From: Actinomycetota bacterium
GTDB taxonomy: Bacteria; Actinomycetota; Actinomycetes; Propionibacteriales; Nocardioidaceae
DNA: 64,000 bases
Assembly: GCA_049323155.1 (NCBI GenBank)
Contig: JBMOMG010000164.1
Span: forward strand, 28,358 to 92,357
Reading direction: 5' to 3'
Positions 15,403 through 47,856 of the stretch are shown one piece after another. The notes below the pieces were generated by a model. That model searched no databases. It was not told the origin of the DNA and was given only the letters and a program-made list of their open reading frames with translations. The first letter of the stretch is position 1, and each line of letters opens with the position of its first letter. Both the position numbers and the translations under genes were made by a program.

Positions 15403-15505
15403 AACACATTCGCCGAACGACGGCACCCGTATGTGCTGTAGAGGCGGCGGAAATAGGCTGCGGAGATTCTCGGGATGCTTGCGCGCAGTGAGGGAGGATT
15501 ACCTT

Positions 15506-30709: not shown

Positions 30710-31612
30710 GTGGTCGACCTGTCCGTCGAGCTCTCGAAACGCGAAGCATTGATGCACGCACTCGCGACGGAGTTCGCCCAGAACGCGGTGCTGACGAGCA
30801 AGTGGCTCGAGTGTGTCGACTTCGGCTTCGGACCTGAGCGGGTCAAGGACGTCGGCAAGGGGATCTGGAACCCATCCTCTTACGCCGGCACTCTCACGAT
30901 CGTGAGCGATCCCCGCAGCGAGTACGATGACGGCGATCATGGTGACTCGCTCTATCGATACTCATACGAGAAGCGACCAGCCGGCCAGGACCCGCGAGGC
31001 GGGTCGAACAGCAAGCTCCGCGAAGCGATGCGTCTTGGCCTCCCGCTCGTCATGCTTCGCAAGATTTCCAATGGTCAGTTCGTGCCGGTCATGCCTGTCT
31101 ATGTCGTGAAAGAGGAGCCCGAACATCGGCGCTTCCTCCTCGCGCTTGACGAGAGCCTCCGTTTCCTCCCAGATCCCGCTCATCTCACCGAAGATCAGCG
31201 CCGCTACGTCGAGCGGGTCGTCCGCCAGCGCATGCATCAACCAGAGTTCCGCGCACGGGTGCTCGGAGCTTACGAGCTCAAGTGTGCAGTTTGCGACCTC
31301 AAGAAGACGCCGCTCCTCGACGCCGCACATATCACGGCAGACACTGCACCTAAGGGGGTGCCCGTGGTTACCAACGGACTCGCACTATGCAAGATTCATC
31401 ACGCCGCGTACGACGAGAACATCCTTGGCATCTCACCGGACTATGTCGTGCACATCAACGAAGACGTGCTCACTGAAGTCGATGGCCCGATGCTGAAGTA
31501 CGGCCTGCAACAGATGGACCGGCGGGCGCTCTGGGTACCGCGCCGGGCAGCGCAGCGACCCGCAAAGGATCGTCTCGCGGAGCGGTTCGAAGTGTTCAAA
31601 CACGCCGGCTGA
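30710..31612 (+). CDS. HNH nuclease with SRA/YDG-like N-terminal domain (candidate modification-dependent Type IV restriction enzyme)
   Basis: HNH block: CAVCDLKKTPLLDAAHITADTAPKGVPVVTNGLALCKIHHAAYDENILGISPDY. The N-terminal GIWNPSSYAGTLTIVSDPRSEYDDGDHGDSLYRYSYEKR...LPLVMLRK...VPVMPVYV resembles the SRA pattern. GTG start. Confidence 0.65.
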   Translation: MVDLSVELSKREALMHALATEFAQNAVLTSKWLECVDFGFGPERVKDVGKGIWNPSSYAGTLTIVSDPRSEYDDGDHGDSLYRYSYEKRPAGQDPRGGSNSKLREAMRLGLPLVMLRKISNGQFVPVMPVYVVKEEPEHRRFLLALDESLRFLPDPAHLTEDQRRYVERVVRQRMHQPEFRARVLGAYELKCAVCDLKKTPLLDAAHITADTAPKGVPVVTNGLALCKIHHAAYDENILGISPDYVVHINEDVLTEVDGPMLKYGLQQMDRRALWVPRRAAQRPAKDRLAERFEVFKHAG

Positions 31613-32078
31613 GGGCATCGGAGCGTCGGGCTCTGACAGCATTGATTACGCGCTGAGCGACCTCGTCCGCCGGCTCGTGCTCCCAAGCCCGGAGGACCAA
31701 CCAGCCGCCGCTCTCAAGTACCTGATCTGTGTGGCAATCCCGCTCTCGATTCCGTGCAACCTTCGCGGCCCAGTAATCCGCGTTGGACCTGGCCACCGTG
31801 TGGTGCTCCGGACACCCGTGCCAGAAGCACCCGTCGATGAAGACTGCGATCTTCAGACGCGGAAAGACCATGTCGGCGCGTCGGTTCAGTGATGTCAATG
31901 GCCTGAAGTCGACTCGGTAGCGAAGTCCGGCCGCGTGCACCAGCCGCCGCACGGCAACCTCCGGCTTGGTGTCCCGCCCTCGGTTACCTTGCATCGAGCG
32001 ACGGACCGCGGGAGTCGATGCCCACGATTGAGCAGCCGGAGATCCCACGTCGCCCTTAGGTCCGGGCGACCCTGACAC
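31596..32078 (-). CDS. vsr: Very short patch repair endonuclease
   Basis: RGRDTKPEVAVRRLVHAAGLRYRV...ADMVFPRLKIAVFIDGCFWHGCPEH...NADYWAAKVARNRERD. Start set to GTG 32078, which overlaps the end of the upstream small ORF. Confidence 0.9.
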   Translation of the reverse strand: MSGSPGPKGDVGSPAAQSWASTPAVRRSMQGNRGRDTKPEVAVRRLVHAAGLRYRVDFRPLTSLNRRADMVFPRLKIAVFIDGCFWHGCPEHHTVARSNADYWAAKVARNRERDCHTDQVLESGGWLVLRAWEHEPADEVAQRVINAVRARRSDALSRRV

Positions 32079-32283
32079 CTGGCACTGCGGCGACGATATC
32101 GTCGAGACTGGCAAGCATCCAGAGACCGTCTTCGAACTGGATCTCGAACAAGTCTCGTTCGGCGGGAGGCTTGGACGTCTCCTCAAGCCGGTTGATTGCG
32201 ATGTACTGCCATCCATCGCGCTTCAGTGCCTCAGCGTCGTTCGTTGTGCGTGCGTGGAACGTGCCGATCGGGGCGCTTACCAT
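32056..32283 (-). CDS. Small hypothetical protein (75 aa) translationally coupled to vsr
   Basis: ATG 32283 with GGAGG 10 nt upstream: MVSAPIGTFHARTTNDAEALKRDGWQYIAINRLEE.... Overlaps the vsr start. Confidence 0.45.
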   Translation of the reverse strand: MVSAPIGTFHARTTNDAEALKRDGWQYIAINRLEETSKPPAERDLFEIQFEDGLWMLASLDDIVAAVPGVRVART

Positions 32284-32526
32284 CCTGTCGCCGCCTCCTT
32301 GACGTGCTGGCAAAACCGCTCCGGAGGTCGCCCGGCACACGGAAGGTGCGCCTGCAGCCGTGTGGGAGCCGTGTGCCGCTCATATGACAACCCTACGCGA
32401 TCGTGTTTTGGCTAGAGCGGCCGACGTGACCGGCCGGCGAAACCTCCACGCGAGCCCGGAGATGGTCTATGTCACTGACCAACTCCTCGCGGAACAAACG
32501 TGAGCTCGAAGTTGAGGGGTCATAGG

Positions 32527-35500
32527 TCACGATCCGTCGTAGGCGACCTGGATGCGAACGGTCCCCTCCGCCGTGTGCAGCAGAGCGTCTCCCTGGCCGG
32601 ACAACGACTCGGCACCGGTTTCGTCCAGAACGATTCGGCTATCCGTCGCAGTCTTTACCCGCAGCGCGAGCTGCGCTGGGAAGTTGGACCTGATCGTCGT
32701 GGAGATGACGTCTGCACTCGGACGCTGCGTTGCCGCGATCACGTGAATGCCGGCAGCACGGGCCTTTTGGGTGAGCCGTCGAAGCAGATCCTCGATCGAT
32801 CGCTTGTCCTCTGGATCGCTCGTCAGGTCGGCGTATTCGTCCAGCACGATGACGATCCATGGCTTCTTGTCGGGCGCCTCGACCTTCGCGTTGAATTCGA
32901 CGAGCTTTCGCGCCCGCACGGCCTTCATCGCGCGATAGCGGTCCTCCATCTCGAGGACCGCGGCCTGAAGGATATGGATCGCGTCGTCAGCGTCCATCCC
33001 GATGCTGCCATCGACATGCGGGTCGTCCTCGAAGTCGACAAGTTCAGTGCCCTTGGGGTCCACGAGTTGCAAGCGCACAGAGGCTGGGTCGTAACGGATC
33101 AGTCCCTTGAGGATCGTGTCGAGAGCAACAGACTTACCAGAGCCGGTCGTACCGGCAACCAGGAGGTGCGGCGAATCCGGTGACGAGAATCGGATCACAA
33201 CCGGCTTCCCGGTGATGTCGGCGCCGACTGGCGCCAAGAGGTCGCTCGCGTCGACCGGGCACGACGCCCACAGCGCGGCCGCTGATACGCCGTACTTCTC
33301 GTCCTCGATCTTCGGGATCTCGAACACGACAGCGCCACGGTCATTCCTAGTTCGGATGCTGTACCCCGCCGGCAACCCAAGGGCGAGAAAGACCTCATCG
33401 CGCCGGTTCACCACCTTGTCAACGGTGACACCCGGCCGGGGCACGAAGCGGAGCACGTAGAACCCGGGACCCTCCCGCCACGATTCCCCCGTGTCGGGCG
33501 GGCCGACCTGCACGTTGTGCAGTCCGAAGACGTCGAGGACCTTGTTATAACGACGACGGAGCTCGTCATCGCCAAGGCCTCCGACGCGCAGGACGGGGAG
33601 TTCGCGCTCTTCCTCCCTATCGACAAACACTTCACCGACGTCCGGATGGTACGGGCCAGCCTGGGTTGCGGCCTCGTCAGTCTCGGCTGAAGGGCTACTT
33701 GAGGCGGACTCCTCCTGAGCGTCTGCCACTAACGGCGCAGGGTCGACCTCGAAGCCCTGGAGGGCCACGACATGCTCAGAAGCAGGGTCCGTCTGTGCGC
33801 GGAGCAAGCCGATCACTTCCTGAAGCTCAGGACGGTTCAGGCGAATGAGCGTATGTCTCCCGAGAGCACGCGCAACCGGTGCCGACTCTTCCTGCGCGGC
33901 GGCGGTCGCGACGGCAACACCGTCGACCCGATTGAGGGTCACGTTGCCGGCTCGCAACGCCTCGATCACGCGCGCCTCAAGATCGAGAAGTGCGGGTCCG
34001 ACTCGCCTTCGCGAGGGAAGCTCAGAACCACGGAGTTCCTCGCTGCTGGTTTGCTCGATCGCCGAAGCGAGCTCCTCAAGCCAGAACCTACGGTCATCCG
34101 TCGCCTCTTCGCCGGAGGCGAAAGCCGATCGACAGAGATCGGTTGTGCGGTTCAGTTGCTCCTCCGCAGACCCGTGGTCGTACTCCTGCCTGAACTTCGA
34201 CTCAACAACGAGTACGTCAAGCGAGACCTCCCCACCCTCCTTGAGCGTGAGCAGAAATCGGCCGAGATCCGCTCGTGTCTTTGCGCCCCGACCGAACCAT
34301 CTCTGTTGCTCGTCGAAGCTCAGCCACACGACGAGGGCGCTCGCGTCGTCGGGGACCGGGAAACGCTGCGCGATCACGAAACGCGTTGCGACGAGACCGA
34401 CGATCTCGTTGATGGTGGTGCCGATACCCAGCGACCTCAACACCGCTCCTGGCACCACGTTGCGGCCGACTGAGTACAACCTGGAAGCCGTCGCCTCGGC
34501 CTCGTCTCTCGCTACAACGCCGATATCGGTCAGTCGTCGACGGAGGCGCTTCACGACGAGGTGTCTTCCGGTCTGTGAACTCACGATCAGCGTGTACGCC
34601 TCGTTCTTGCCGACGCCCGGCTTGACGAGAATGACGTCTGGACGATCGTTGAGGTTGTCGATCTGGTCACGACCGATGAAGGAGTCGAGGGTCACGACCC
34701 AGTGCGCGACCTTGTGGAGCGCCAGGAATAGCTGTTGGTGATGGTCGAACTGAACCTGCATCTCAAAATAGTCGGTGTTGCTCTCCTTCTCGCGGGCGAC
34801 AGCCGAGCGTCGGTCGTAGCGGACGCAAAGCGTGGACCAAGTCTCAAGAAGCGCGTCCGGCGAACTCGGAAGGAGTTCGCGGACGACGTTCTCGCTCGAC
34901 TCGGTGAGATCGTGGGCCGCGGCGTGCGTCCATGGGTCGTACCGGCCAGCCAGCGTTGCTGCCGGGTCCCTCGTGCTCGCGTTGAGACTCGTCTGGGTAC
35001 CGAAGAGCGCGGGCGCAAGAGCGATGTCGATCGAGTCCTCCATGCCGCTGAGGTCTGCATCGCTATCAGCGTTCCAAGGCTTCAAAACGAGCTGGACGTC
35101 TGGGAGGAACCGCTCCTCGGTAACGTCAGAGTCGGCGAACTCGGTGTCGAACGCCTGGATGATCCCGTGGTGTGTCTCTCGCGGCGCGAGAACCACCAGG
35201 TCCAAGCGAAGCTTCGGGTTCTTGGCACGTACGCGCTTCGCTACACGCACAGGCAGTACCGAGTCGCCGTTCCTATCGAGCAAGAGGACGGACAGTCCGT
35301 CAAGCTTGTGTGGATAGGTGGACAGGTAGTCGGAAATGACGCGCACCATCTCGTCGATGGCAGTCTCGTCGACCGCGTCGAGCCAGTCACGCGACTCGCT
35401 GCCGCCTCGCCGCACAGGCGCGTATTCCTCGTGCCCGGCCGACTCGCGCACCGGAATCGCGGCCGTCTGGTTTGGTCCCACCACTACTGCCGGCGTGCCG

Positions 35501-37515
35501 TGCGGTGAAACGCGCTCAATTGCGTCGAAGAAGAGATCGCTGTTCTCAGGATTGAGCTTCAACCCATCGGTCAACGCCTTCGAGATCAGGTTCGTGAGCT
35601 GCGCGTAGTGACGAGCCAGCCATCGCAGACGCAATGGGTGCGTTGCGAGCATGGCCAGACGGTGCTCCGTGAGGCGGACGACGTCACTGAGCACGACGTT
35701 GGAAAGGTCAACATCCGGCGCGTTGGCGGGTACGAGCTGCGTTCGGGCGCGGCTCATCACCTGAGCCCACTCATCCACGTACGAATCGATCAGTTCGGCG
35801 TCGACGCCATCGACGATCTCTTCGAAGTGTTTGCGGCGGAGGTGGAACAGTTCGGCCGCAAGCTGCCCTGCGGGAGCATCCACAGAGCGCCCCTGCCAAT
35901 CGCGGGGGTCACTGAACTGATCGAGGAAGGCATCAAAGCTCCCTTCGTAAACCTCCCCTGGCGACGTCTCGAACCCGTTGAGCAACGCCGCAACCGCGAT
36001 TTGACCAGGCGTGGCGAACGGATCCCAGCGGAACCGTCGCTGGGCCCCGCCCTGCATCTCGACGACGATCCGAATCGGCGCCCACGCCTCGGCAGAGTCG
36101 AACGGCTCCTCGTCCGGAGGCAATACCGGAGGCTTGCAGTCCAAGAGGCACGCTTCGACTTCCAGGCCGAGCCTGAGACCGACCGACGCCTGCACGAGCC
36201 TGAGACTCTTCCCGTAAAGGAAAGCGAAGAGCCATCGCGTCCAAGCGCCAGATTCCAGGCTTCCCTCGACTCTGACAGTGACGGTGCCCTCTTCTTCCTC
36301 ATCGAAGTAGGTGAGCTCCCGTAGCAGCGCACGCAGCGGGTCAGGCACGACAAGCGAGTCGGGGAATGCGATCTTCTCTACCCGCCGCCGAAGCGGCTTG
36401 GGCAGCAGGTCAGCGAGTGTTTCCGCATCGCCCGGTGGCTCGGCGGACAAGAACCGCTCCGCTGCATCCTGATCGCTTCGGTCTAGGTTCTCCTCGACGA
36501 GGAGGGCATCGAACTCGTCGAGCCGCCCGCCATCTGCACGCTCGATCGCTTCCCGAATCAGACGTCCGAGTCCGACCTTCGCCGAGCGCTTCTCGAACAG
36601 CTCAAGCCACAGAGGGAGGTCAAGCGCCCGGCGGGAGTCCTCCGTCGACCCGAGCGACATAACCAGGCTTCGCATGTGGGTCTTGGCGTCTTCCAGTGGA
36701 AGGTTCACGCGCTCAAGCCGCGGCGCGGTGAGTTCGGCGGCGTCGATCCGACCAAGAAGATCCTCGTCGGTCAGCAGAGCCCCACTAGGTTGCCGCAGAC
36801 TGCTGACGCGCACGTTCTTCCTGACACGGGCCTCAAGCGCACTCTCTGAAATGAACAGGTCGCTGTCCGGGAACAAGCCAAGGCTGGGAAGCGCGCTGGC
36901 CACAGCCGTCTGGATCACATCGGTCGTGTGCACGGCTGAACGCGCAACGACCGCAGCTGACTCCACGAGATAACGGGCTAGCCGGCGCAGTGAGCGACCT
37001 TCTTCTTCGGTCTCCGAAACCGTGCGCCATATGCGTGTCTGGTAGGCCTCGAGGAGCGCGGGCACCCTGCCTTCACCACCGACTTCGACCCAGGCCTCCT
37101 GCGCAAAGGTCTCAAACCGTCGATCTTGGTCGGAGCCACTCAACAAGAGCGAGCCATCCAGCCGATTTACCGCGGTGAGGCCTTGAGTGTCCGGAGGCAC
37201 TCCCCAGTCGAAGAGCAGGACGGAGGCGCCTTCGCCGGTGACGTTTCGCCAGGCCGTCAACTGCGCCCCAACTTCAAGGAGGTAATCGGCGGGAACGCCT
37301 TCGATTGGCTGGGACGTACCCACCTTCACGATCAAGTGCGGTGCCGTGCCGGTGGCCAGCCGTTCCGCGACTTCCGTCAGGGCGGACTGGACGATGGGCT
37401 TCTCGAATCCGGCGACTCGTAGCGCGGCCCGCGTGCCGTCGGAGCCCTTGGTCACCGAGTTCAGCGCCACCAGAGCAACAAGACGGCCGAGTGTCTTGTC
37501 TGCTGCGTCGATCAT
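32527..37515 (-). CDS. dptH: DptH-like giant protein (1662 aa) with C-terminal FtsK/HerA-type motor ATPase
   Basis: C-terminus has Walker A LLVAGTTGSGKSVALDT, Walker B PWIVIVLDEYADL, and the FtsK-type block HVIAATQRPSADVISTTIRSNFPAQLALRV. ATGA overlap with the DptG-like gene. Size and order fit dptFGH. Confidence 0.7.
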   Translation of the reverse strand: MIDAADKTLGRLVALVALNSVTKGSDGTRAALRVAGFEKPIVQSALTEVAERLATGTAPHLIVKVGTSQPIEGVPADYLLEVGAQLTAWRNVTGEGASVLLFDWGVPPDTQGLTAVNRLDGSLLLSGSDQDRRFETFAQEAWVEVGGEGRVPALLEAYQTRIWRTVSETEEEGRSLRRLARYLVESAAVVARSAVHTTDVIQTAVASALPSLGLFPDSDLFISESALEARVRKNVRVSSLRQPSGALLTDEDLLGRIDAAELTAPRLERVNLPLEDAKTHMRSLVMSLGSTEDSRRALDLPLWLELFEKRSAKVGLGRLIREAIERADGGRLDEFDALLVEENLDRSDQDAAERFLSAEPPGDAETLADLLPKPLRRRVEKIAFPDSLVVPDPLRALLRELTYFDEEEEGTVTVRVEGSLESGAWTRWLFAFLYGKSLRLVQASVGLRLGLEVEACLLDCKPPVLPPDEEPFDSAEAWAPIRIVVEMQGGAQRRFRWDPFATPGQIAVAALLNGFETSPGEVYEGSFDAFLDQFSDPRDWQGRSVDAPAGQLAAELFHLRRKHFEEIVDGVDAELIDSYVDEWAQVMSRARTQLVPANAPDVDLSNVVLSDVVRLTEHRLAMLATHPLRLRWLARHYAQLTNLISKALTDGLKLNPENSDLFFDAIERVSPHGTPAVVVGPNQTAAIPVRESAGHEEYAPVRRGGSESRDWLDAVDETAIDEMVRVISDYLSTYPHKLDGLSVLLLDRNGDSVLPVRVAKRVRAKNPKLRLDLVVLAPRETHHGIIQAFDTEFADSDVTEERFLPDVQLVLKPWNADSDADLSGMEDSIDIALAPALFGTQTSLNASTRDPAATLAGRYDPWTHAAAHDLTESSENVVRELLPSSPDALLETWSTLCVRYDRRSAVAREKESNTDYFEMQVQFDHHQQLFLALHKVAHWVVTLDSFIGRDQIDNLNDRPDVILVKPGVGKNEAYTLIVSSQTGRHLVVKRLRRRLTDIGVVARDEAEATASRLYSVGRNVVPGAVLRSLGIGTTINEIVGLVATRFVIAQRFPVPDDASALVVWLSFDEQQRWFGRGAKTRADLGRFLLTLKEGGEVSLDVLVVESKFRQEYDHGSAEEQLNRTTDLCRSAFASGEEATDDRRFWLEELASAIEQTSSEELRGSELPSRRRVGPALLDLEARVIEALRAGNVTLNRVDGVAVATAAAQEESAPVARALGRHTLIRLNRPELQEVIGLLRAQTDPASEHVVALQGFEVDPAPLVADAQEESASSSPSAETDEAATQAGPYHPDVGEVFVDREEERELPVLRVGGLGDDELRRRYNKVLDVFGLHNVQVGPPDTGESWREGPGFYVLRFVPRPGVTVDKVVNRRDEVFLALGLPAGYSIRTRNDRGAVVFEIPKIEDEKYGVSAAALWASCPVDASDLLAPVGADITGKPVVIRFSSPDSPHLLVAGTTGSGKSVALDTILKGLIRYDPASVRLQLVDPKGTELVDFEDDPHVDGSIGMDADDAIHILQAAVLEMEDRYRAMKAVRARKLVEFNAKVEAPDKKPWIVIVLDEYADLTSDPEDKRSIEDLLRRLTQKARAAGIHVIAATQRPSADVISTTIRSNFPAQLALRVKTATDSRIVLDETGAESLSGQGDALLHTAEGTVRIQVAYDGS

Positions 37516-38882
37516 CGAGGCTCCCCGTGGACGATATTAGTGGCGTCTGAGTAGTGCGTCAGCAGCCCCGTCGCAGCCAGGCGAGATCGGAATGCATCGG
37601 AGTTCCGGGAAAGGACTGACGCATCGACGTCGACCGTCAGGTCGTGCTCGCCGGCGGTTCGGTCGTCGATGATGATCTGGTACTCGTCGTAGAGTCGCGA
37701 GCAGAAGCTGTACAACTCTTCCTCTGTGCCCGGTGCCAGGCTCGCTGAGACGAGCGCTTCAAGCATCGGAGGCTTCATCGTGAAGTGCCGTCGCCCGGTC
37801 GTCGCGTTCAGCGCCCCGACTGCCGCCAGCGTCTCCGAGAAGAAGGAGCGCGGTGAACCCGTTCCCGTGGCACTCGGTGACATGTGGCGGACGTAGCGCT
37901 TCGCCAACGTCTCATTTCCCTCGCTCCGAGCTCTGTCGTGCAGGGACGTCGCGCGCGCGATGATCGCGTTCACGATGTCCTTCCGGAACTCCTCGAGCGC
38001 GTTCTGAGACAGTCGTCGAAGCGGGGTCGCGTCCTTCACGAAGTCGGCAAACACGGTCTCCGGCGGCTTCTCCAACGACCTCCGAGCAAGGTGTAATTGA
38101 TGGCGAGCAAGGCAGTAGGGGGCCCAGTGCATGAGGCTTTCGGTTCGCTTGGAGCGCGGGACGTTGGTGCGCCTGACGATGAAGTGCACGCCGCGTCTTA
38201 AGTGCTCCGGCCATGGGCTGAGGTCCTCGAAGGTCTGGATCTCCGATTCAGACCGGTCCTCGTAAGGCTCGTCATCCTTCGCGTGGTCGTGGCTCCGGAG
38301 CGAGTGCGCGATTTCGCCAAGAGGCGACCCGCTATCCCGCACCAGTTCCAGCAAGCCCTCTTGGGTTCCGGCGCGACGGGGGCCGTCCGCATCTGTTCGA
38401 AGGACCCGATAGGCCCAGGTTCCGCCATCGCGAAATACGTACCGCTCGATGTGCGGCATCTTCGTGCCGCGAGGAAGCCCGGCCTGCCACCGCTCCGCAG
38501 CGTCGTAGTGGATCAACTCGCCCACGAACGGATACAGGTGAGTGTTGTACCAGCTGGGCGACTTTCGGCGGCCAGGAATCTGGACGAGCAGTGATGATGC
38601 CAGGGCCTGGAGAGTGGCCCGGGTGTCCTCGCCGTCGACCGCTGCTTTTTGCGTCTCTTCATCGATCCCGGCGTTGACTGCAACACGGCGCGCAAAGTCG
38701 TGGGACGCCCGAAGGTAGGCCAAAACGGCGGCATCCCCCTTGAGGAGTGCAGATGGGTCGACCTCGTAGACGCCTCGAGCGATGGCGAGTAGCTCTAGCG
38801 AGACGTAGAAGCCGCGACCTTGCTGCTCCAGATTCACGCCAAACAGGTCGTGGACGACCTCGGCTTTCGACCGATCCGCCAT
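37512..38882 (-). CDS. dptG: DptG-like protein (456 aa)
   Basis: Middle gene of an overlapping three-gene operon, of the size expected for DptG. No enzymatic motif recognised. The assignment rests mainly on context. Confidence 0.55.
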   Translation of the reverse strand: MADRSKAEVVHDLFGVNLEQQGRGFYVSLELLAIARGVYEVDPSALLKGDAAVLAYLRASHDFARRVAVNAGIDEETQKAAVDGEDTRATLQALASSLLVQIPGRRKSPSWYNTHLYPFVGELIHYDAAERWQAGLPRGTKMPHIERYVFRDGGTWAYRVLRTDADGPRRAGTQEGLLELVRDSGSPLGEIAHSLRSHDHAKDDEPYEDRSESEIQTFEDLSPWPEHLRRGVHFIVRRTNVPRSKRTESLMHWAPYCLARHQLHLARRSLEKPPETVFADFVKDATPLRRLSQNALEEFRKDIVNAIIARATSLHDRARSEGNETLAKRYVRHMSPSATGTGSPRSFFSETLAAVGALNATTGRRHFTMKPPMLEALVSASLAPGTEEELYSFCSRLYDEYQIIIDDRTAGEHDLTVDVDASVLSRNSDAFRSRLAATGLLTHYSDATNIVHGEPR

Positions 38883-40672
38883 CAGGCATGCACCGATCTG
38901 ATCTGGTCACCGACGTCGATCAGGAGTTTGCGGGGAACCGCGCCAACGAGAACCTGGATGACCTCATGTTCGCTAGCCGCATCCGCGAGAGCAGCCAGAG
39001 TGCTTGTGAGGCCTCTGATCTCCGCTTCGTGTTGCGTCCCGCTCCGCAAACCTGCGGCCCAGCGGTTGAGCAGCTCGAACCGCAGAAGGTCAACCTCGAC
39101 GGCGACCGGAGGACGGCCGAGCGGACCAGGGATTCGTACAAAGATCGCCCGATTCAGCCACTCCACTGCCCGATGGAGCACGGGCTCGGGTTCTCCGGGC
39201 ACCATCTCGCTCATCCAGTGGCTTACCTGATCGACCACTTGCACGTGGCGGTTCGTCACGCTGCGCGAGACGACAGCGGCCCTCGTGCGGTGCGAAAAGA
39301 ACGCCGGATCCAGCACAAGGAAGTCAGGATTGCTCCCTACGCGATGGATGCCCTGTACCGCTTCGAGCCCCTTCAGGACGACGTCCCGGATGTCGGTCTT
39401 GCGCGCGTCAGGCGTGTTCGGCCTGACCTTGACGAAGGCGTCACCCGCACTCAGTCCGAGCCGGGCGAAGCGGTCCGACGCGTCGCTGTTGAAGAGGTCG
39501 GCGCGCCGGAGGAAGACGTAGAGGTCCCGCAAGGCCCCGGCCTCCCGCTGTGCATCTTGGGCCGTCCTGATAGGGCGGCCATCGTTGCCGGGCGTCGGCG
39601 GAAGGAATGCGACCATCGCGGCCTCAGGCTCCAGTACGTCATCGACCTGCCGGCGGGAGACTTTCCCAGGATCCAGTCGACGCAGCGCCAGAATGGCGGG
39701 CACCTGTTGGCGTTGCTGTGGCGACAGGCGATCGCCGAAGAGTGCCTGGTGATACTGGTAAGGGTGCTGCCACGACCTGTCCGCACGCGCGTTCCTATAG
39801 CGGCGGTGGACGTCGTCGCAGGTGAGTCCGCCGGTGATCGCGTGCGCGAGGGTCGACAGGGCTTGCCGGGCGGTGATCACAGATCCGGTGCGCTCGGCCG
39901 CGCTGAACAAATCACGGATCGCGCGACGGCGAGACGGACCGCTAGAGGCGTCGGATAGCGCTTCATGATTGGCCAAGATCGGACAAACGTCGCGGGCGTC
40001 GCAGCGCTTGCAGATCTGCCATGAACGCTTGTCGACAGCCCAGTTCCGAGTCGCCCAGTCGACGAGACCGTCGCCATCTCGGTCTGGAGCGACAGACTGG
40101 TAGTTGAGGTTGATCACCACGACGGCGCCGTCGCTGCTGGCGACTGCCCCCTGGGCAATCCCCGCCCCGAGTGTGTCGACCACCACCTGGGCACGCTCGG
40201 AACTGGCTGCCGACACGCACTCGCGCAACTGCCCTTCGTTCGCGCAGATGATGGCGACACCACCCTCGGGCGGCTCCATGAGGTCGATCAGGCGCTGGGC
40301 CCCAACGCTTGGGGAGAAGTCGCTCAGGTCCTTGATCATGAAGATCGGTCGTCCGGCCCCCGTGTGACCGGCCGGCTCTCTGCCTTCCTTGCCTGCCCGC
40401 TCGACTTGTGCGGCCGCTTCCAGCTTCGTCGCGCCGAGGTCTTCAAGCAGGCTCGCACAAAGGCTCGTTTTTCCGTGCCCCGCGTCGCCCGTCAGCACCA
40501 CCGTCCGGGTTGCTGATTGCTCGACCACCGCGAGCAGGAAATCGCGAGTAACGACGCGGAACGTCGGCTGGTTGTGGTCGGTCTGACGCTCGAACACCAG
40601 GTCAGCGCTGTCGGCATCGAAGGGCTGGTATCGGTGCAATCGCGCGATGTGACTGTTCACCTCGAGCGCCAT
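38882..40672 (-). CDS. dptF: DptF-like P-loop ATPase (596 aa)
   Basis: Walker A VVLTGDAGHGKTSLCASLL and a Cys cluster WQICKRCDARDVCP. First gene of the operon, with a 1-nt overlap to the next gene. Confidence 0.6.
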   Translation of the reverse strand: MALEVNSHIARLHRYQPFDADSADLVFERQTDHNQPTFRVVTRDFLLAVVEQSATRTVVLTGDAGHGKTSLCASLLEDLGATKLEAAAQVERAGKEGREPAGHTGAGRPIFMIKDLSDFSPSVGAQRLIDLMEPPEGGVAIICANEGQLRECVSAASSERAQVVVDTLGAGIAQGAVASSDGAVVVINLNYQSVAPDRDGDGLVDWATRNWAVDKRSWQICKRCDARDVCPILANHEALSDASSGPSRRRAIRDLFSAAERTGSVITARQALSTLAHAITGGLTCDDVHRRYRNARADRSWQHPYQYHQALFGDRLSPQQRQQVPAILALRRLDPGKVSRRQVDDVLEPEAAMVAFLPPTPGNDGRPIRTAQDAQREAGALRDLYVFLRRADLFNSDASDRFARLGLSAGDAFVKVRPNTPDARKTDIRDVVLKGLEAVQGIHRVGSNPDFLVLDPAFFSHRTRAAVVSRSVTNRHVQVVDQVSHWMSEMVPGEPEPVLHRAVEWLNRAIFVRIPGPLGRPPVAVEVDLLRFELLNRWAAGLRSGTQHEAEIRGLTSTLAALADAASEHEVIQVLVGAVPRKLLIDVGDQIRSVHA

Positions 40673-40764
40673 GAACCTGGATCTTCCTCCGTCGTCGAAC
40701 TACGTCGTGGCGATCGTAACGCCGCATGTGGGAGGTTTGTGTGGAGAAGCCTGGAACACAGCCG

Positions 40765-40797
40765 ATCGGGCACCGCAGGTGCCGCTCGGTGCCCGAT
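40765..40797. promoter_or_regulatory. Perfect 11-bp inverted repeat with 11-nt spacer in the divergent dptF/dcm intergenic region
   Basis: ATCGGGCACCG (40765-40775), caggtgccgct, CGGTGCCCGAT (40787-40797). A 12-bp palindrome CGACACGTGTCG lies at 40818-40829. Confidence 0.5.
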
Positions 40798-40935
40798 GGC
40801 GGTGGCGACGGGCACCACGACACGTGTCGTCGGAGGTGCGTCACAACACGCTACGGGTAGCCAGGACGCGGCCGCGTCCCGAGTAGGCTGACACCTCGGC
40901 CGGCGCACTAGGAGCGCCTGAACGGAGGGACCGGG

Positions 40936-42069
40936 ATGGCAAGCACACACCCCCTTCGAGAAGGTCGGCGCCCCGACTTCGAACTCGGAGAACGTCACCT
41001 CGTCGTCGTCGATCTCTTCGCTGGCTGCGGAGGGCTGACGCTCGGCGCAGCACAGGCCGCGCAAGCTCACGGGCTTGCAATTGACGTCCCGCTGGCCGTG
41101 GACTTCGAGCAGGCTCCCTCGGACGTCTTCAAGACAAACTTCCCAAAGGCCGTCGTTCAGGTCGCTGCGGTCGAGAGCTACTTCGACGGTGCCCTTGGCG
41201 CCGAACCGACGAAGACGGAACTCAATGTGATCGAACAGGTCGGCGCGGTCGACCTGCTCATCGGCGGGCCTCCCTGCCAAGGGCACTCCAACCTCAACAA
41301 CCACACCCGCAGAGACGACCCAAAGAACAGGTTGTACCTGCGGATGGCGCGTGCTACCGAGGTGCTGCGGCCCCGCGTCGTGGTGATCGAGAACGTGCCT
41401 GCAGTCGTGCACGACTCGCAGCAGGTGGTCACGCGAACGAGGGAACACCTGGAGGGAGTGGGGTACCACGTCGCCGCGACCCGGGTTGAGCTACTTCAGC
41501 TCGGAATCCCTCAAACGCGGCGACGTCACATCCTCCTAGCGGTGCGTTCAGACGTGCTGACCTCGGGCGTGTCAGTCGAAGACCTCCTTGAGTTCGCACC
41601 CCAGCCCACCCGCGACCTCCGATGGGCGATAGGCGACTTGGAGCACGTAAGCCCAGACCGCTGGATCGATGCGCCGTCGAAGATGAGCGCTGAGAACAAG
41701 AAGCGCATTCAATGGCTCATCGACAACGACGAGGTGAACCTGCCCAACGACCGGCGCCCCGTGTGCCACCAGGGTGACCACTCGTACGTCTCGATGTACG
41801 GCCGCCTGAACTGGAGGCAGCCCGCCCAGACCATCACGAGCGGATTCGGGAGCATGGGCCAAGGGCGATATGGCCACCCCTCACAGCCCCGCACGCTGAC
41901 ACCGCACGAAGCCGCCCGCATCCAGGGATTTCCCGACTACTTCCGTTTCGACGCTGCGGTGACCCGTACCCAACTGTCGGTCATCATCGGAAACGCCGTA
42001 CCGCCCGCCCTGACTCGCGTTCTGACGTCCCGTTTGATCGAACTCGGAATCCTCGACAACGACTCCTGA
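40936..42069 (+). CDS. dcm: DNA (cytosine-5)-methyltransferase
   Basis: All canonical motifs are present: DLFAGCGGLTLG (I), GGPPCQGHS (IV), VIENVPAV (VI), QTRRRHILLA (VIII), RTLTPHEAARIQGFPDYF (IX), IGNAVPPAL (X). Confidence 0.95.
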   Translation: MASTHPLREGRRPDFELGERHLVVVDLFAGCGGLTLGAAQAAQAHGLAIDVPLAVDFEQAPSDVFKTNFPKAVVQVAAVESYFDGALGAEPTKTELNVIEQVGAVDLLIGGPPCQGHSNLNNHTRRDDPKNRLYLRMARATEVLRPRVVVIENVPAVVHDSQQVVTRTREHLEGVGYHVAATRVELLQLGIPQTRRRHILLAVRSDVLTSGVSVEDLLEFAPQPTRDLRWAIGDLEHVSPDRWIDAPSKMSAENKKRIQWLIDNDEVNLPNDRRPVCHQGDHSYVSMYGRLNWRQPAQTITSGFGSMGQGRYGHPSQPRTLTPHEAARIQGFPDYFRFDAAVTRTQLSVIIGNAVPPALTRVLTSRLIELGILDNDS

Positions 42070-42208
42070 GTTCGCACATCTGACTTAGTGCTTGTCGCAA
42101 AGACCCGCCGAATCTTCGTCCCCATGGTGTGCGGAGCCTGAGGTGCTGCACCATGCCGTCCGCCCCGGAGGGTGATCGGATGTCGAATCCGATGCTCGGG
42201 TTCCGACC

Positions 42209-43573
42209 TCACAGCCGCCGGCTCGGGCGTCGGTTCGGCGTCAGTGGACGACAGCCGTACGGCTGGCGGTCGAGGCTCGCGCGTAGGGTCTGCCTGGATC
42301 GGTTCGCCGATACGGCCACTCCCCCAAGCTCGCGCTCCGTCTCCGCGTTGGCTATGCGCCGCGCCACGAAGTCAATGTCGCCTGACGCCGACCTCGCAGC
42401 GGGCGGCTGCGCCATCTTCCCGACTACGCGAGATACCTCCGGCCGTTCCCCTGGCTCCGCGCGGCGCCAGCGCAGAGCCACGTCGCCGTCATCGACGACA
42501 AGCAGTCTCCCTGAGGCGAGCGCCCTGCTGACGTTCCCTGCCAGGCTGGTCGCGAGGCTGGGATGCTCGGCATCGAAGTCCGCTAGCACTCCGGGCTTGA
42601 TCCGCGCTCCGGCTCGTCGTGCCTCGAGGAGCACGCGCCCGATGTCCTGGGTCTGCGCGAGCAGCGGTCGGCCCGAGGAGGGTCCGATGCTGGCGAGACG
42701 GACAGTAGCGCCGGCCAGCTCACGAAACCGTTCGTCCCTGCGACGGAACGACTCACGAAGCCGAGACAGACCGAGCGAGTCAGCGAGTTCTGCGCACGTG
42801 TTCGCGATGTCGGACTGCATGAGCGCGAAACTTCGTAGCTCCGGGACTGAGAGTTCGCTTCGGCGCAGCAGGTCATCAGCCGCTCTGACCCCGAAGACCA
42901 GGTCTTCGGACCGATGCAGCTGCACCGGACGACCTCGCACCTCGCGCCTCACGATGGTGTCGGTTGCCGGATCCAGTTCACCGGCGCGGGCGACGTACCC
43001 GATGTGCCGGGCCACGAGCCGAAGTTCCGCACTGGGCACCCGCACGGCTGTCTCCCAATCGGGGACGGCTTCCCGCACCGAGGGTTCTAACGCGCGGTCG
43101 ACCACGGTCAGGGTCTCGGCCGCGTCGGCGATGTCGGCCATGATGGTCCAGGCCTGACCTGGGTCCTGAGTCCACGCCGGCGATGAGACCGCCGTCTCGG
43201 TGGCTAGGACCGCGTGCTTGGCCGCGGCAACCCATGCCTGGCTGTACGGACTCAGGGTGTCGTCCTGCAGCACGTCGGTGAAGCGTGCGGTGTGCGTCTC
43301 GAAGGCCGGGTATTCGTCCAAGAGCTGGCTCAGCGCCACTGCTCCGCCTTGGGCGACACCGGCGAGATCCCGCGCATCCTTGCGGTCCTTGAACAGGGCT
43401 GAATGGACGTTCGCCCCGTGGGTTGCGCGTCGGCATCTCTCGCGGTGGGCGGCTAACAGCGCCGCACGGCAGGTCAGCACCACATGAAGCTCTGCCGCAG
43501 ACACGTGTACGGGATGGGTCACGAGCCAGACGAGGGCGTCGGACGACCTGGCGTGATGGTGTCCGTAGCTCAT
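42209..43573 (-). CDS. Hypothetical helical protein (454 aa)
   Basis: ORF 42209..43858 trimmed to ATG 43573 (MSYGHHHARSS...), which forms an ATGA overlap with the upstream 114-aa ORF. No recognisable motif. Confidence 0.5.
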   Translation of the reverse strand: MSYGHHHARSSDALVWLVTHPVHVSAAELHVVLTCRAALLAAHRERCRRATHGANVHSALFKDRKDARDLAGVAQGGAVALSQLLDEYPAFETHTARFTDVLQDDTLSPYSQAWVAAAKHAVLATETAVSSPAWTQDPGQAWTIMADIADAAETLTVVDRALEPSVREAVPDWETAVRVPSAELRLVARHIGYVARAGELDPATDTIVRREVRGRPVQLHRSEDLVFGVRAADDLLRRSELSVPELRSFALMQSDIANTCAELADSLGLSRLRESFRRRDERFRELAGATVRLASIGPSSGRPLLAQTQDIGRVLLEARRAGARIKPGVLADFDAEHPSLATSLAGNVSRALASGRLLVVDDGDVALRWRRAEPGERPEVSRVVGKMAQPPAARSASGDIDFVARRIANAETERELGGVAVSANRSRQTLRASLDRQPYGCRPLTPNRRPSRRL

Positions 43574-43914
43574 GAGGTTCTCGTGAGCGCCGCGGCGACG
43601 TGATCCCGGGCGAGTGCCACGCGTACCGGGTCTACGTCGTGGGCCGACAGATCGGCGAGGATCGCCGTGAGTGCGTCCTGGGTCTCGGCCAAGGCCCGCG
43701 GGACGTCGGTGATGTTGCGAGCAGCATCGGGCGGTGGCCAGAAGCCCCTCGCGGACGATTCGAGGTTGTCGAGCGCGAGGAGTACGTCGAGGTGGCGGTC
43801 TCGACTCAGAACCGTGTGGCCGATCTCGGCGAGTTCGGCCAGCACGCTGCGGGCGCACTGGACCTCAGGGGTCAGGGGCGCGTCATATGAAGTCATGGGT
43901 CTCAGGCTGCTCAC
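43570..43914 (-). CDS. Hypothetical small protein (108-114 aa), first gene of a two-gene operon
   Basis: ORF track. Start is either GTG 43914 or ATG 43896. Coupled to the 454-aa gene. Confidence 0.4.
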   Translation of the reverse strand: MSSLRPMTSYDAPLTPEVQCARSVLAELAEIGHTVLSRDRHLDVLLALDNLESSARGFWPPPDAARNITDVPRALAETQDALTAILADLSAHDVDPVRVALARDHVAAALTRTS

Positions 43915-46246: not shown

Positions 46247-46465
46247 GTGATGGCGATGACGACGAGTATCCCCGCGGCTCCCGGGAGTCGGGTCCACCTC
46301 ACCATCGCCGACGTCTGCGCAGAGCTCGGCATCGCACGATCGACGTTCTACGACTGGCGGGCAGCCAAGAAGGCGCCCCGCTGCATCAAGCTCCCCAACG
46401 GTGACGTGCGCATCCGGCGCACCGACCTGGAGCGGTGGCTGAAGAGTCTCGAGGATGTCGCGTGA
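46247..46465 (+). CDS. xis: Excisionase / MerR-like HTH DNA-binding protein
   Basis: LTIADVCAELGIARSTFYDWRAAKKAPRCIKLPNGDVRIRRTDLERWL. Directly precedes and overlaps the integrase. Confidence 0.8.
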   Translation: MMAMTTSIPAAPGSRVHLTIADVCAELGIARSTFYDWRAAKKAPRCIKLPNGDVRIRRTDLERWLKSLEDVA

Positions 46466-47856
46466 CGCGGCCAGTCAGCAGCCATGAGGTCCGGATCCGC
46501 GGAATTCGCAAGTACAAAGGCGTTCGAGGCACTACGTACACCGTGCGCTGGCGCGTCGCGGGCCGGGACTTCCAGCGGACCTTCGCAACCGCGAAGCTCG
46601 CCGACACGTTCCGATCGGAACTGCTCGTCACAGCACGTGAAGGACGTGGGTTCGATCCTCGCCACGGCCTACCAACCGCCTTGGTGAATGACCTGCAAAG
46701 ACGCACGTGGTACGAGCACGCGATGGAGTTCATGGAGACCAAGTGGCCCCACGCCGCTCCGCGACACCGCAAGGGGCTCGCTGAAGCGCTCGTCACCCTG
46801 ACCGTTGCCCTCACAACGCCAACCAGCGACACACCGCCTTCTGACGACGTACGACGAGCGCTGTTTCGGTGGGCTTTCAACGTGGGAGCACGAGAGTCAG
46901 ATCCGCCGGACGAGTTCTGGCAGGCCCTTGCCTGGGTCGAGCGCCAGTCGCTGCCGCTCTCCGAAGTCCAGCTCGCCCCCAACCTGCGCAAGGCACTCGA
47001 TGCCATCTCGTTGAAGCTAGATGGCACTGCTGCGGCATCATCAACGGTCAGGCGTAAGCGATCGGCGTTCTACAGCGCACTGCAGTATGCCGTGGAGCTG
47101 GAACTGATCGACTCCAATCCTCTCGACCGGATCTCGTGGAAAGCTCCTGTTGCCAGCGAGATGGTCGACCGACGCGTCGTCGTCAACCCAGTCCAGGCTC
47201 GGGCACTGCTCGCTGCGGTACGCGACCTCAGCCCAGCGGTCGAGGGCTTCTTCGCATGCCTGTACTACGCCGGCCTTCGCCCGTCAGAAGCCGTCAATCT
47301 CCGAGACAAGGACTGCCTGCTCCCTGAGTCGGGATGGGGCGAACTGGTCCTCATCGGTAGCCACCAAACGACCGGCCGCGCCTGGACAGACTCCGGGGAC
47401 GCCGGCGAGGAACGCGGTCTGAAACACCGGTCCCGTCAGGACACCCGCCACGTGCCCGCCCACCCTGAACTCGTCGCCATCCTGCGACGCCATGTCGACC
47501 AGTTCCCGCTCGGCCCTGACGGCCGGCTATTCGTCTCGCGTACCGGCAAGCGCGGTGTCCCGCTGCCACCGCCGTACTCGAATCCGCTCTCGATGGGGAC
47601 CGCATATCGGATCTGGCACAGGGCCAGAGCGGCCGCTCTCACTCCAGGGCAGGCCGCGTCACCGCTAGCACGGCGCCCCTACGATCTCCGCCACGCCTGC
47701 CTGTCTACCTGGCTCAATGCCGGCGTCCCTGCCACCCAGGTCGCGGAGTGGGCCGGCCACAGCGTCAACGTGCTCCTCAAGGTCTACGCCAAGTGCCTCG
47801 ACGGCCAGGACGAAGCCGCCAAGAGACGGATCGAACACGCATTGGCGCTCAACTGA
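46462..47856 (+). CDS. int: Tyrosine recombinase / ICE integrase
   Basis: Start set to GTG 46462 (GTGA overlap with xis). Core residues: YYAGLRPSEAVNL (Arg), HVPAHPELV, PYDLRHACLSTWL (HxxR), AGHSVNVLLKVYAKC (His ... Tyr). Confidence 0.9.
   Translation: MTRPVSSHEVRIRGIRKYKGVRGTTYTVRWRVAGRDFQRTFATAKLADTFRSELLVTAREGRGFDPRHGLPTALVNDLQRRTWYEHAMEFMETKWPHAAPRHRKGLAEALVTLTVALTTPTSDTPPSDDVRRALFRWAFNVGARESDPPDEFWQALAWVERQSLPLSEVQLAPNLRKALDAISLKLDGTAAASSTVRRKRSAFYSALQYAVELELIDSNPLDRISWKAPVASEMVDRRVVVNPVQARALLAAVRDLSPAVEGFFACLYYAGLRPSEAVNLRDKDCLLPESGWGELVLIGSHQTTGRAWTDSGDAGEERGLKHRSRQDTRHVPAHPELVAILRRHVDQFPLGPDGRLFVSRTGKRGVPLPPPYSNPLSMGTAYRIWHRARAAALTPGQAASPLARRPYDLRHACLSTWLNAGVPATQVAEWAGHSVNVLLKVYAKCLDGQDEAAKRRIEHALALN

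What the first reader, a model, noticed from the sequence alone, without database searches (positions are those of the whole stretch)
31596..42069. DptFGH-like restriction trio bracketed by dcm and vsr, with no phosphorothioation genes in 64 kb
Three overlapping minus-strand genes of 596, 456 and 1662 aa match the order and sizes of dptF-dptG-dptH. The first has a P-loop (GDAGHGKTS) and the last has a C-terminal FtsK-type motor (GTTGSGKS, VLDEYADL, ATQRPS). In the described Dnd system, DndFGH activity is held in check by DndABCDE-made phosphorothioate marks. No DndA-E or SspA-D type genes (PAPS-reductase-like, SMC-like, cysteine desulfurase) are visible anywhere in this window. Instead the operon is divergently paired with a complete C5 cytosine methyltransferase 264 bp away. 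It is followed on the same strand by a 75-aa ORF and vsr, the repair enzyme that normally accompanies Dcm. This suggests a DndFGH-like motor/nickase complex whose self-mark could be 5-methylcytosine rather than phosphorothioate, carried as ICE cargo. I do not know of such a coupling having been characterised.
Basis: partly seen in the sequence, partly recalled or inferred. Interest (0 to 1): 0.85.

Follow-up and report, generated by a model that had tools for sequence, protein, structure and literature searches.

The report
Cytosine-methylation-linked SspFGH-like restriction module
The window carries an uncharacterised five-gene defence cassette: a cytosine-5 DNA methyltransferase and its Vsr repair partner sit next to a three-protein ATPase, nuclease and DNA-motor module that is a distant relative of the phosphorothioate-dependent SspFGH restriction system. 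The same pairing recurs in many bacterial phyla, which suggests 5-methylcytosine has replaced phosphorothioate as the "self" mark.

Summary
Three translationally coupled minus-strand genes (596, 456 and 1662 aa) lie between a complete C5 methyltransferase 263 bp upstream (divergent) and vsr downstream. The window has no phosphorothioation genes.

The label needs correcting. No NCBIfam DptF/G/H model hits. The trio is a remote homologue of SspFGH, scoring 120/43/333 bits against PADLOC models versus 817/727/2300 for canonical SspFGH. It shares the architecture: Walker A plus a Cys cluster in F, and a PD-(D/E)xK-like motif plus an FtsK motor in H.

The central idea is strongly supported by comparative genomics. 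In 75 complete homologous trios from Actinomycetota, Pseudomonadota, Planctomycetota, Verrucomicrobiota and Acidobacteriota, at least 66 have a C5 methyltransferase within 3 kb and at least 48 have vsr. None has sspA-D. No other neighbouring gene family is conserved.

More distant relatives of F (about 25% identity) sit beside sspABCD instead. Some loci are single M-Vsr-F-G-H operons. One F carries a DUF3427 domain, a known reader of modified cytosine.

Function is untested, and I found no description in the searchable literature. Verdict: a new 5mC-coupled variant of Ssp/Dnd-type restriction, carried here as cargo of an actinobacterial conjugative element.

The parts
40936..42069 (+). C5 cytosine DNA methyltransferase (377 aa), the proposed self-marking enzyme
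   Evidence: PF00145 1.4e-45 and TIGR00675 126 bits against a cut-off of 100.65. All catalytic motifs are present. PDB relatives are DNMT1, M.HhaI and M.HaeIII. A C5 methyltransferase lies within 3 kb of at least 66 of 75 homologous trios.
40673..40935 (.). 263-bp divergent intergenic region between the methyltransferase and F; presumed promoter region
   Evidence: Coordinates, sequence. The sigma-70 consensus scan found nothing, but that scan is not informative for Actinomycetota.
38882..40672 (-). F: P-loop NTPase (596 aa) with Walker A TGDAGHGKT (61-69) and a conserved Cys cluster (C221, C224, C230, C285); remote SspF homologue
   Evidence: PADLOC SspF PDLC02795 3.5e-35, N-terminal half only. 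Walker A and the Cys cluster are >=95% conserved in 78 homologues and present in canonical SspF. One family member carries an N-terminal DUF3427 domain.
37512..38882 (-). G: mostly helical protein (456 aa); its C-terminal ~90 aa are shared with SspG and MAD7
   Evidence: PADLOC SspG 9e-12 over residues 362-451, and NCBIfam MAD7 at 8e-4. Some orthologues carry a precomputed Pfam PF26611 MAD7 hit. AF2 model pLDDT 80, pTM 0.84. The best PDB fold match is DndG 7exx, but it is weak (E 0.23, TM 0.37).
32527..37515 (-). H: 1662-aa multidomain protein. It has an uncharacterised N-terminal body, a PD-(D/E)xK-like motif (D1068, D1083, E1105-x-K1107) and a C-terminal FtsK alpha domain plus motor (Walker A 1455-1462, Walker B 1557-1563). 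No gamma domain is present.
   Evidence: PF01580 3e-35; PADLOC SspH PDLC02806 1.3e-99; FtsK PDB 7e-47. Motif residues are invariant in 36-75 homologues and in canonical SspH. In the AF2 model of residues 1-1200 (pLDDT 83.6) the motif lies on a strand-helix-strand-strand-helix unit. FtsK_alpha hits in 12 of 15 homologues.
32056..32283 (-). 75-aa ORF between H and vsr, with a strong Shine-Dalgarno sequence; membership doubtful
   Evidence: Sequence read; GC3 0.72. No homologue in 80 related loci. Absent from the closest H-Vsr locus, L086.
31596..32048 (-). vsr: very-short-patch repair endonuclease, about 150 aa from a GTG near 32048 (the ORF is open to 32216)
   Evidence: TIGR00632 7.9e-35 above its cut-off; PF03852. 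Start inferred from alignment with the 141-aa L086 orthologue. vsr lies near at least 48 of 75 trios.
30710..31612 (+). HNH_2 endonuclease ORF (300 aa) converging on vsr; a possible accessory or independent defence gene
   Evidence: PF13391 3.8e-6; PADLOC HNH 3.5e-16. Homologues sit beside the cassette in only two other loci, L001 and L029. No PDB relative.

Best explanation
This is a restriction-modification-like defence cassette. The C5 methyltransferase marks host DNA with 5-methylcytosine. The F-G-H complex is the restriction arm. F is a P-loop ATPase and possibly the sensor. G is a DndG/SspG/MAD7-like adaptor. H combines a PD-(D/E)xK-type nuclease with an FtsK-type dsDNA translocase. The complex loads on DNA, translocates using ATP, and nicks or damages DNA that lacks the mark, as shown for SspFGH and DndFGH with phosphorothioate. 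Vsr repairs the T:G mismatches produced by 5mC deamination.

Shown here: gene content, domain architecture, remote homology to SspFGH, conserved linkage to C5 methyltransferase and Vsr, and absence of phosphorothioation genes.

Inferred: that 5mC protects, that H is the nuclease, that F, G and H form a complex, and that the system defends against phages or plasmids.

FGH proteins that are 81-87% identical sit beside methyltransferases that are only 27-32% identical, and no FGH segment co-varies with methyltransferase type. Recognition is therefore probably not encoded as a fixed sequence specificity in FGH. Either 5mC is read generically, or the methyltransferase itself supplies target recognition.
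For: - **Linkage.** Of 75 complete trios from at least 5 phyla, at least 66 have a C5 methyltransferase within 3 kb and at least 48 have vsr. No other neighbouring family occurs in more than 10 loci. Linkage persists although position and orientation vary: upstream divergent, upstream co-directional, or downstream convergent.
- **Single operons.** L091 is one M-Vsr-F-G-H operon with overlapping or 19-nt-spaced genes. L092-L094 and L083-L087 also carry the methyltransferase.
- **No phosphorothioation genes.** There are 0 hits to SspA-D in the window or the 80 loci.
- **Contrast with distant relatives.** F relatives at about 25% identity sit beside cysteine desulfurase, DUF4007, SspC and PAPS reductase.
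- **Shared catalytic architecture with canonical SspFGH**.
- **Properties of canonical SspFGH.** It is toxic without its mark and damages unmodified DNA (PMC8092258).
- **Reader-domain fusion.** One F is fused to DUF3427, the 5mC/5hmC-associated target-recognition domain of SauUSI.
- **Translational coupling** of F, G and H.
Against: - There is no experiment, and linkage is not function.
- Five intact trios with adequate flanks lack a nearby methyltransferase: L009, L015, L022 and L045 (all Nocardia) and L049. Either FGH is tolerated without an adjacent methyltransferase or the partner lies elsewhere.
- No FGH region co-varies with methyltransferase type. This is unexpected for a classical sequence-specific restriction enzyme, and canonical SspFGH does discriminate the sequence context of its mark.
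- The nuclease assignment rests on a motif and predicted secondary structure only. Pfam and Foldseek did not confirm it.
- Whole genomes could not be scanned for distant dnd or ssp clusters.
Confidence: 0.65

Rival explanations
1. The methyltransferase is the DNA-recognition subunit of the complex, as in Type III R-M or BREX PglX. FGH is recruited or licensed at unmethylated target sites through the methyltransferase and does not read 5mC itself. This is a mechanistic variant of the best explanation.
For: Methyltransferases are exchanged (27-32% identity) beside 81-87% identical FGH, with no co-varying FGH segment. M and F are tightly coupled in L091.
Against: Methyltransferase position and orientation vary, and the gene is often divergently transcribed. 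Very different methyltransferase scaffolds (318-577 aa) would all need to dock on the same FGH. One F carries its own putative modified-cytosine reader domain.
Confidence: 0.15
2. FGH is a defence or DNA-processing module that does not depend on modification. The methyltransferase-Vsr pair is an independent orphan module that merely co-travels with it in defence islands.
For: Five intact trios lack an adjacent methyltransferase. There is no FGH/methyltransferase covariation. Other defence genes cluster nearby: Kiwa, HNH, AspBHI-like and Hhe-like genes.
Against: About 88% of trios have a C5 methyltransferase within 3 kb, across phyla and despite rearrangement, and no other neighbour is conserved. 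Operon fusion with overlapping genes occurs in L091. The PT-linked sister clade shows that this chassis is normally paired with a modification module.
Confidence: 0.12
3. The trio is a genuine phosphorothioate-dependent SspFGH or DptFGH, and its modification genes lie elsewhere in the genome. The dcm-vsr adjacency is coincidental.
For: PADLOC names the proteins SspF/G/H. Whole genomes could not be searched.
Against: Scores are far below those of canonical members: 120/43/333 versus 817/727/2300 bits. No Dpt model hit. There are 0 SspA-D hits in 80 loci, whereas canonical sspFGH genes sit directly beside sspABCD. The methyltransferase linkage is far too consistent to be chance.
Confidence: 0.04
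4. FGH is a Type IV-like, modification-dependent system that attacks foreign 5mC or 5hmC DNA. The adjacent methyltransferase has a different role.
For: There is a DUF3427 fusion in one F. AspBHI-like Type IV genes occur in two loci.
Against: A resident C5 methyltransferase would make host DNA a target. The fusion is a single lineage. The canonical relatives attack unmodified DNA.
Confidence: 0.04

Closest known systems
SspABCD-SspFGH (phosphorothioate-based defence; Wang et al. 2021, PMC8092258)
   Same: It has the same three-gene order and similar sizes (about 600, 450-510 and 1660-1800 aa). F shares the Walker A and four-Cys cluster. G shares its C-terminal domain. H shares the PD-(D/E)xK-like motif and the C-terminal FtsK motor. 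It is likewise paired with an adjacent DNA-modification module.
   Different: Sequence identity is only about 25% and PADLOC scores are 5-15 times lower than for canonical members. The partner is a C5 methyltransferase plus Vsr instead of SspA-D. The proposed mark is a base methylation rather than a backbone sulfur.
DndFGH / DptFGH (phosphorothioate-dependent restriction)
   Same: It is an analogous trio of a P-loop protein, an adaptor, and a large translocase/nickase. The only PDB fold that resembles G at all is DndG (7exx), and the match is weak.
   Different: There is no detectable sequence similarity: no NCBIfam Dpt model hit. The mBio paper states that SspFGH shares no sequence homology with DndFGH. 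No dndBCDE genes are present.
MADS (methylation-associated defence system; Maestri et al. 2024; primary paper not readable here)
   Same: It is a methylation-coupled system with related parts. The G C-terminus matches MAD7 (NCBIfam 8e-4, and Pfam PF26611 on orthologues). The H motor matches PADLOC mad8 at 3.6e-27.
   Different: MADS has eight genes. All hits here fall far below the family cut-offs (18.6 versus 410 bits; 19.4 versus 175 bits). The gene set and methyltransferase type differ here.
Classical Type II dcm-vsr pairs; DISARM (DrmMII) and Druantia type II (DruM) C5-methyltransferase-containing systems
   Same: A C5 methyltransferase provides the presumed self mark, and Vsr accompanies the methyltransferase. 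The window methyltransferase matches the PADLOC DruM model PDLC00033 at 8.5e-111.
   Different: F, G and H match no DruF/G/E or DrmA/B/C/E models. The restriction arm has an entirely different architecture.

Membership tests
DptFGH / DndFGH | Match to the NCBIfam DptF, DptG and DptH models (TIGR03238/03236/03237; that these models are in the library is from my own knowledge) | tested here: not met
   No such hit at E<=0.01 for any of the three proteins.
DptFGH / DndFGH | Adjacent dndBCDE modification genes | tested here: not met
   Pfam scans of the window ORFs show no PAPS reductase, DndB/E or SMC-like DndD. No such conserved neighbour appears in 80 loci.
DptFGH / DndFGH | DndG-like fold of the middle protein | tested here: inconclusive
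   The top Foldseek PDB hit of the G model is 7exx DndG, but with E 0.23, probability 0.75 and TM 0.37.
SspFGH | Family-level match to the PADLOC SspF/G/H models | tested here: not met
   The window proteins score 120, 43 and 333 bits with partial coverage. Canonical Agrobacterium SspF/G/H score 817, 727 and 2300 bits at full length. This is remote homology only.
SspFGH | Architecture: F with Walker A and Cys cluster, G, and H with a nuclease-like motif and C-terminal FtsK motor, in F-G-H order | tested here: met
   The motifs align with canonical SspF and SspH.
SspFGH | Genetic linkage to sspBCD (with sspA or iscS) | tested here: not met
   There are 0 tblastn hits to SspA-D in the window or the 80 loci. 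Canonical loci have these genes adjacent.
SspFGH | Restriction of DNA lacking the mark; toxicity without the modification module | not testable with these tools
   This needs genetics or biochemistry.
C5 cytosine DNA methyltransferase (Dcm type) | PF00145/TIGR00675 above cut-off, with catalytic motifs I, IV (PCQ), VI (ENV), VIII, IX and X | tested here: met
Vsr endonuclease | TIGR00632/PF03852 above cut-off | tested here: met
   119.7 bits against 97.85; 65.7 bits against 27.
MADS | Matches to the MAD1-8 equivalog models above cut-off | tested here: not met
   MAD7 scores 18.6 bits against a cut-off of 410, and MAD8 scores 19.4 against 175.
Druantia type II | DruM together with DruF, DruG and DruE | tested here: not met
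   Only the methyltransferase matches a Dru model. F, G and H give no Dru hits.
Integrative conjugative element (context) | Relaxase, coupling protein, VirB4-like ATPase, integrase, and flanking att repeats | tested here: inconclusive
   TrwC relaxase, T4SS-DNA_transf coupling protein, a TrbL-like protein and a tyrosine integrase are present. No direct repeat of 14 bp or longer was found between the candidate ends.

The most novel reading that the evidence does not exclude
This is a widespread, unnamed defence family of about 100 protein clusters at 50% identity, found in at least five phyla. In it, an SspFGH-like ATPase/nuclease/FtsK-translocase complex treats 5-methylcytosine as a generic self mark, independent of sequence context. 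That would let the methyltransferase be swapped freely without re-tuning the restriction arm. It would also show that the Ssp/Dnd/MADS chassis is a general 'modification-scanning motor' that evolution has re-plugged onto chemically unrelated marks: backbone sulfur, 6mA and 5mC.
Probability: 0.3. Interest if true: 0.85.

Novelty: new variant of a known kind. Interest (0 to 1): 0.72.

Why it matters
How SspFGH and DndFGH tell marked from unmarked DNA is still poorly understood, particularly because only 10-15% of sites are modified. A natural sister family uses the same chassis with a simple, well-understood and easily manipulated mark, 5mC, which can be installed in vitro by many methyltransferases and mapped genome-wide. 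That makes the sensing mechanism directly testable.

The finding also adds a common cassette, currently annotated as 'hypothetical protein' or 'FtsK/SpoIIIE domain protein', to the list of methylation-based defence systems. The cassette occurs in Streptomyces, Nocardia, Mycobacterium, Pseudomonas and many environmental lineages. This is relevant to barriers against transformation and phage in industrial actinomycetes.

Many C5 methyltransferases now scored as 'orphan' may in fact have a non-canonical restriction partner.

Tried and rejected
- **PDB sequence searches** for F (profile) and G found nothing. For H they found only FtsK, EccC and TraB motors.
- **Pfam on 15 diverse H N-terminal regions** at E<=1 gave only FtsK_alpha, so the nuclease call stays motif-based.
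- **Foldseek of the H 1-1200 model** gave Rossmann/class I methyltransferase-like hits only at E 0.008-0.05. I treat these as non-significant, and no nuclease fold surfaced.
- **Fused methyltransferase hypothesis.** I tested whether the 830-970-aa long forms of F are methyltransferase-F fusions. This is rejected: the extensions have no methyltransferase domain. One extension is DUF3427.
- **Specificity segment.** I looked for a segment of F, G or H that co-varies with methyltransferase type, in 60-aa windows. None was found.
- **ICE att repeats.** Nothing longer than 13 bp was found.
- **PADLOC 'DrmD' hit in the window** is only the IS21 IstB ATPase.
- **PADLOC scan through a pseudo-alignment** of all window ORFs lists only 25 of 100 families. 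It is therefore not a complete negative. The negative for phosphorothioation genes rests.
- **Literature.** The library is open-access only, and the primary MADS paper could not be read.


Full report
**Observation.** The three minus-strand ORFs are exactly as reported: 38882-40672 (596 aa), 37512-38882 (456 aa) and 32527-37515 (1662 aa). Their stop and start codons overlap, TGATG at F/G and ATGA at G/H, which points to a translationally coupled operon. The quoted motifs are present. The H C-terminus is a bona fide FtsK/SpoIIIE motor (PF01580 3e-35; FtsK structures 7e-47).

The divergent gene 263 bp upstream (40936-42069) is a complete C5 methyltransferase with motifs I, IV, VI, VIII, IX and X. 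Downstream on the same strand is vsr (TIGR00632 above cut-off). Its real start is probably a GTG near 32048, because a close orthologue is 141 aa. The 75-aa ORF (32056-32283) has a good Shine-Dalgarno sequence but no homologue in related loci.

**Identity of the trio.** No NCBIfam DptF/G/H model hits, so the 'dptFGH' label is not supported. PADLOC SspF, SspG and SspH models do hit, but weakly and partially:
- F scores 120 bits over its N-terminal half.
- G scores 43 bits over its last ~90 residues.
- H scores 333 bits.

As a positive control I recovered canonical sspABCD-sspFGH loci from plasmids. Those proteins score 817, 727 and 2300 bits at full length against the same models. A Pseudomonas orthologue of the window trio scores 149, 47 and 277 bits. 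The window trio therefore belongs to a distinct sister family of SspFGH.

The architecture is shared, however. Aligned with canonical SspF and SspH, the following are all conserved:
- the Walker A motif;
- a four-Cys cluster (C221, C224, C230, C285);
- the motif D1068...D1083...E1105-x-K1107;
- the FtsK Walker A and B motifs.

The D...ExK motif sits on a strand-helix-strand-strand-helix unit in a confident AF2 model of H 1-1200 (pLDDT 83.6). This fits a PD-(D/E)xK nuclease, but neither Pfam nor Foldseek confirmed it.

G models well (pLDDT 80). Its only suggestive PDB match is DndG (7exx), and that match is weak: E 0.23, TM 0.37. The G C-terminus also resembles MAD7, and the H motor resembles mad8 of the methylation-associated MADS system. 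All these matches are far below the family cut-offs.

**Absence of phosphorothioation genes.** Six-frame tblastn with SspA, B, C and D from two canonical loci finds nothing in the 64-kb window or in 80 related loci. Pfam scans of the window ORFs show conjugation genes, IS21 and IS110, Kiwa, an integrase and housekeeping genes. They show no PAPS reductase, DUF4007, DndB/E or cysteine desulfurase.

**Comparative genomics.** A scan of one genome per species returned 80 loci with an F homologue at 29-80% identity. These came from Actinomycetota, Pseudomonadota, Planctomycetota, Verrucomicrobiota, Acidobacteriota, Fibrobacterota and Chloroflexota. F, G and H co-occur in all complete loci.

All-against-all clustering of the flanking ORFs found only two conserved neighbours: a C5 methyltransferase and Vsr. 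No other family occurs in more than 10 loci. Counted strictly, 65 of 75 complete trios have a C5 methyltransferase within 3 kb (66 with L002, which was missed because of an over-long ORF call). At least 46-48 have vsr.

Of the nine loci without a methyltransferase:
- three have truncated flanks (L020, L052, L074);
- one is degraded (L048);
- five are intact with adequate flanks: four Nocardia loci (L009, L015, L022, L045) and L049.

The methyltransferase's position and orientation differ between lineages, yet the linkage persists. Metagenomic relatives repeat the pattern:
- L083-L087 all carry M-F-G-H, with Vsr called only in L086. L086 lies outside any conjugative element.
- L091 is a single M-Vsr-F-G-H operon with overlapping genes.
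- L092-L094 carry the same genes.

In contrast, F relatives at about 25% identity lie directly beside cysteine desulfurase, DUF4007, SspC and PAPS reductase. A profile search of 1.84 billion representatives finds 113 clusters at E<=1e-30 and 479 at E<=1e-10. The switch from methyltransferase-linked to ssp-linked context falls near E of about 1e-35 to 1e-40.

**Mechanistic hints.** Pairs of loci whose H proteins are 81-87% identical carry methyltransferases that are only 27-32% identical. No 60-residue segment of F, G or H diverges more between methyltransferase types than within one type. FGH therefore does not seem to carry a specificity module matched to the methyltransferase.

One F homologue (P0339) has an N-terminal DUF3427 domain (29.7 bits against a gathering score of 27.7). 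It sits in an M-Vsr-F-G locus. DUF3427 is the target-recognition domain of the 5mC/5hmC-dependent enzyme SauUSI, and it is associated with binding of modified cytosine (PMC6765204). This points to F as the subunit that reads the mark, at least in that lineage.

Canonical SspFGH is toxic in cells lacking its mark. It causes DNA damage and blocks phage DNA replication (PMC8092258). By homology the same logic is the best model here, with 5mC as the mark.

**Context.** The cassette lies between conjugation genes and a tyrosine integrase at 46435-47856. The conjugation genes are a TrwC relaxase at 4469-7747, a coupling protein at 22135-23877, a VirB4-like ATPase and a TrbL-like protein. ICE cargo is therefore plausible. 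I found no att repeats.

**Novelty.** All database names for the proteins are 'hypothetical' or 'FtsK/SpoIIIE domain-containing'.

Caveats: the library is open-access only, and the MADS paper could not be read. From my own knowledge, tools such as PADLOC may lump such loci into a generic 'DNA modification system' class.

I rate this a new variant of a known kind. The chassis (Ssp/Dnd/MADS-like) and the logic (modification as self mark) are known. The pairing with 5mC, the breadth of the family and the apparent independence from methyltransferase identity are new.

**Verdict.** Confidence in the restriction-modification-like model is about 0.65, and interest is 0.72.

Noticed in passing
window 13883-15402 (+), and 15332-18604 (+): A Kiwa defence pair, KwaA (173 aa) and KwaB (333 aa), sits in the same element (PADLOC and Pfam hits). 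It is followed by a 1090-aa ORF with no Pfam or PADLOC match.
   Followed up: partly
window 11591-13649 (-): An IS21-family insertion. IstB is intact, and IstA appears split into two overlapping ORFs (12849-13649 and 12397-13131). The PADLOC model named 'DrmD' (PDLC02630) hits IstB at 7e-58, so that name is misleading.
   Followed up: partly
window 30710-31612 (+): A 300-aa HNH_2 endonuclease ORF converges on vsr. Its N-terminal ~160 aa have no match. Homologues lie beside the cassette in L001 (Agromyces) and L029 (Georgenia) only. It could be a modification-dependent nuclease.
   Followed up: partly
L053 18220-19380; L077 18477-19658; L054 18784-20058; L069 8395-9867: In some proteobacterial and mycobacterial loci an extra gene sits between H and the methyltransferase or next to Vsr. 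It is either an AspBHI_N+Mrr_cat (Type IV-like, 5mC-reading) endonuclease or a HATPase_c_3 (MutL-like) protein.
   Followed up: no
P0346, P0361, P0367, P0375, P0377, P0379, P0380, P0383, P0387, P0391, P0392, P0394 (e.g. L091 10001-12646): At least twelve 50%-identity clusters of F homologues are 830-970 aa long. They share a ~290-aa N-terminal extension with no Pfam hit. The three looked up (P0346, P0379, P0391; loci L094, L091, L093) lie in M-Vsr-F-G-H loci. The extension may be a further sensor domain.
   Followed up: partly
L094 11968-17742; L096 5991-9641; L093 12320-17308: Variants of H: one has a fused protein-kinase domain (1924 aa), one is 1216 aa with no FtsK hit, and one is split into two genes.
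   Followed up: no
L009 5499-9572 (-): In a Nocardia locus lacking the methyltransferase, the gene next to F is a 1357-aa DUF4011-AAA_11/12 helicase fused to an MTES_1575 (Vsr-fold) nuclease. This is an Hhe-like defence protein.
   Followed up: no
window H residues ~670-900 (window ~34800-35500): The AF2 model of H 1-1200 gives its best PDB fold matches to class I Rossmann methyltransferases (E 0.008-0.05, probability up to 1.0). The region lacks an obvious GxGxG motif. It may be a degenerate methyltransferase-like domain.
   Followed up: partly
window 42100-43900: Beyond the methyltransferase, two long overlapping ORFs (42209-43858 on the minus strand, 549 aa; 42129-43157 on the plus strand, 342 aa) have ambiguous codon-position GC. 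The minus-strand ORF had no Pfam or PADLOC hit; the plus-strand ORF was only covered by the truncated PADLOC scan. The coding status is unclear.
   Followed up: partly
L088 2-2176; L089 19715-21724: Canonical ssp loci on plasmids often also carry a gene annotated 'DNA phosphorothioation-associated putative methyltransferase', so methyltransferases of another kind accompany the PT-linked clade too.
   Followed up: no
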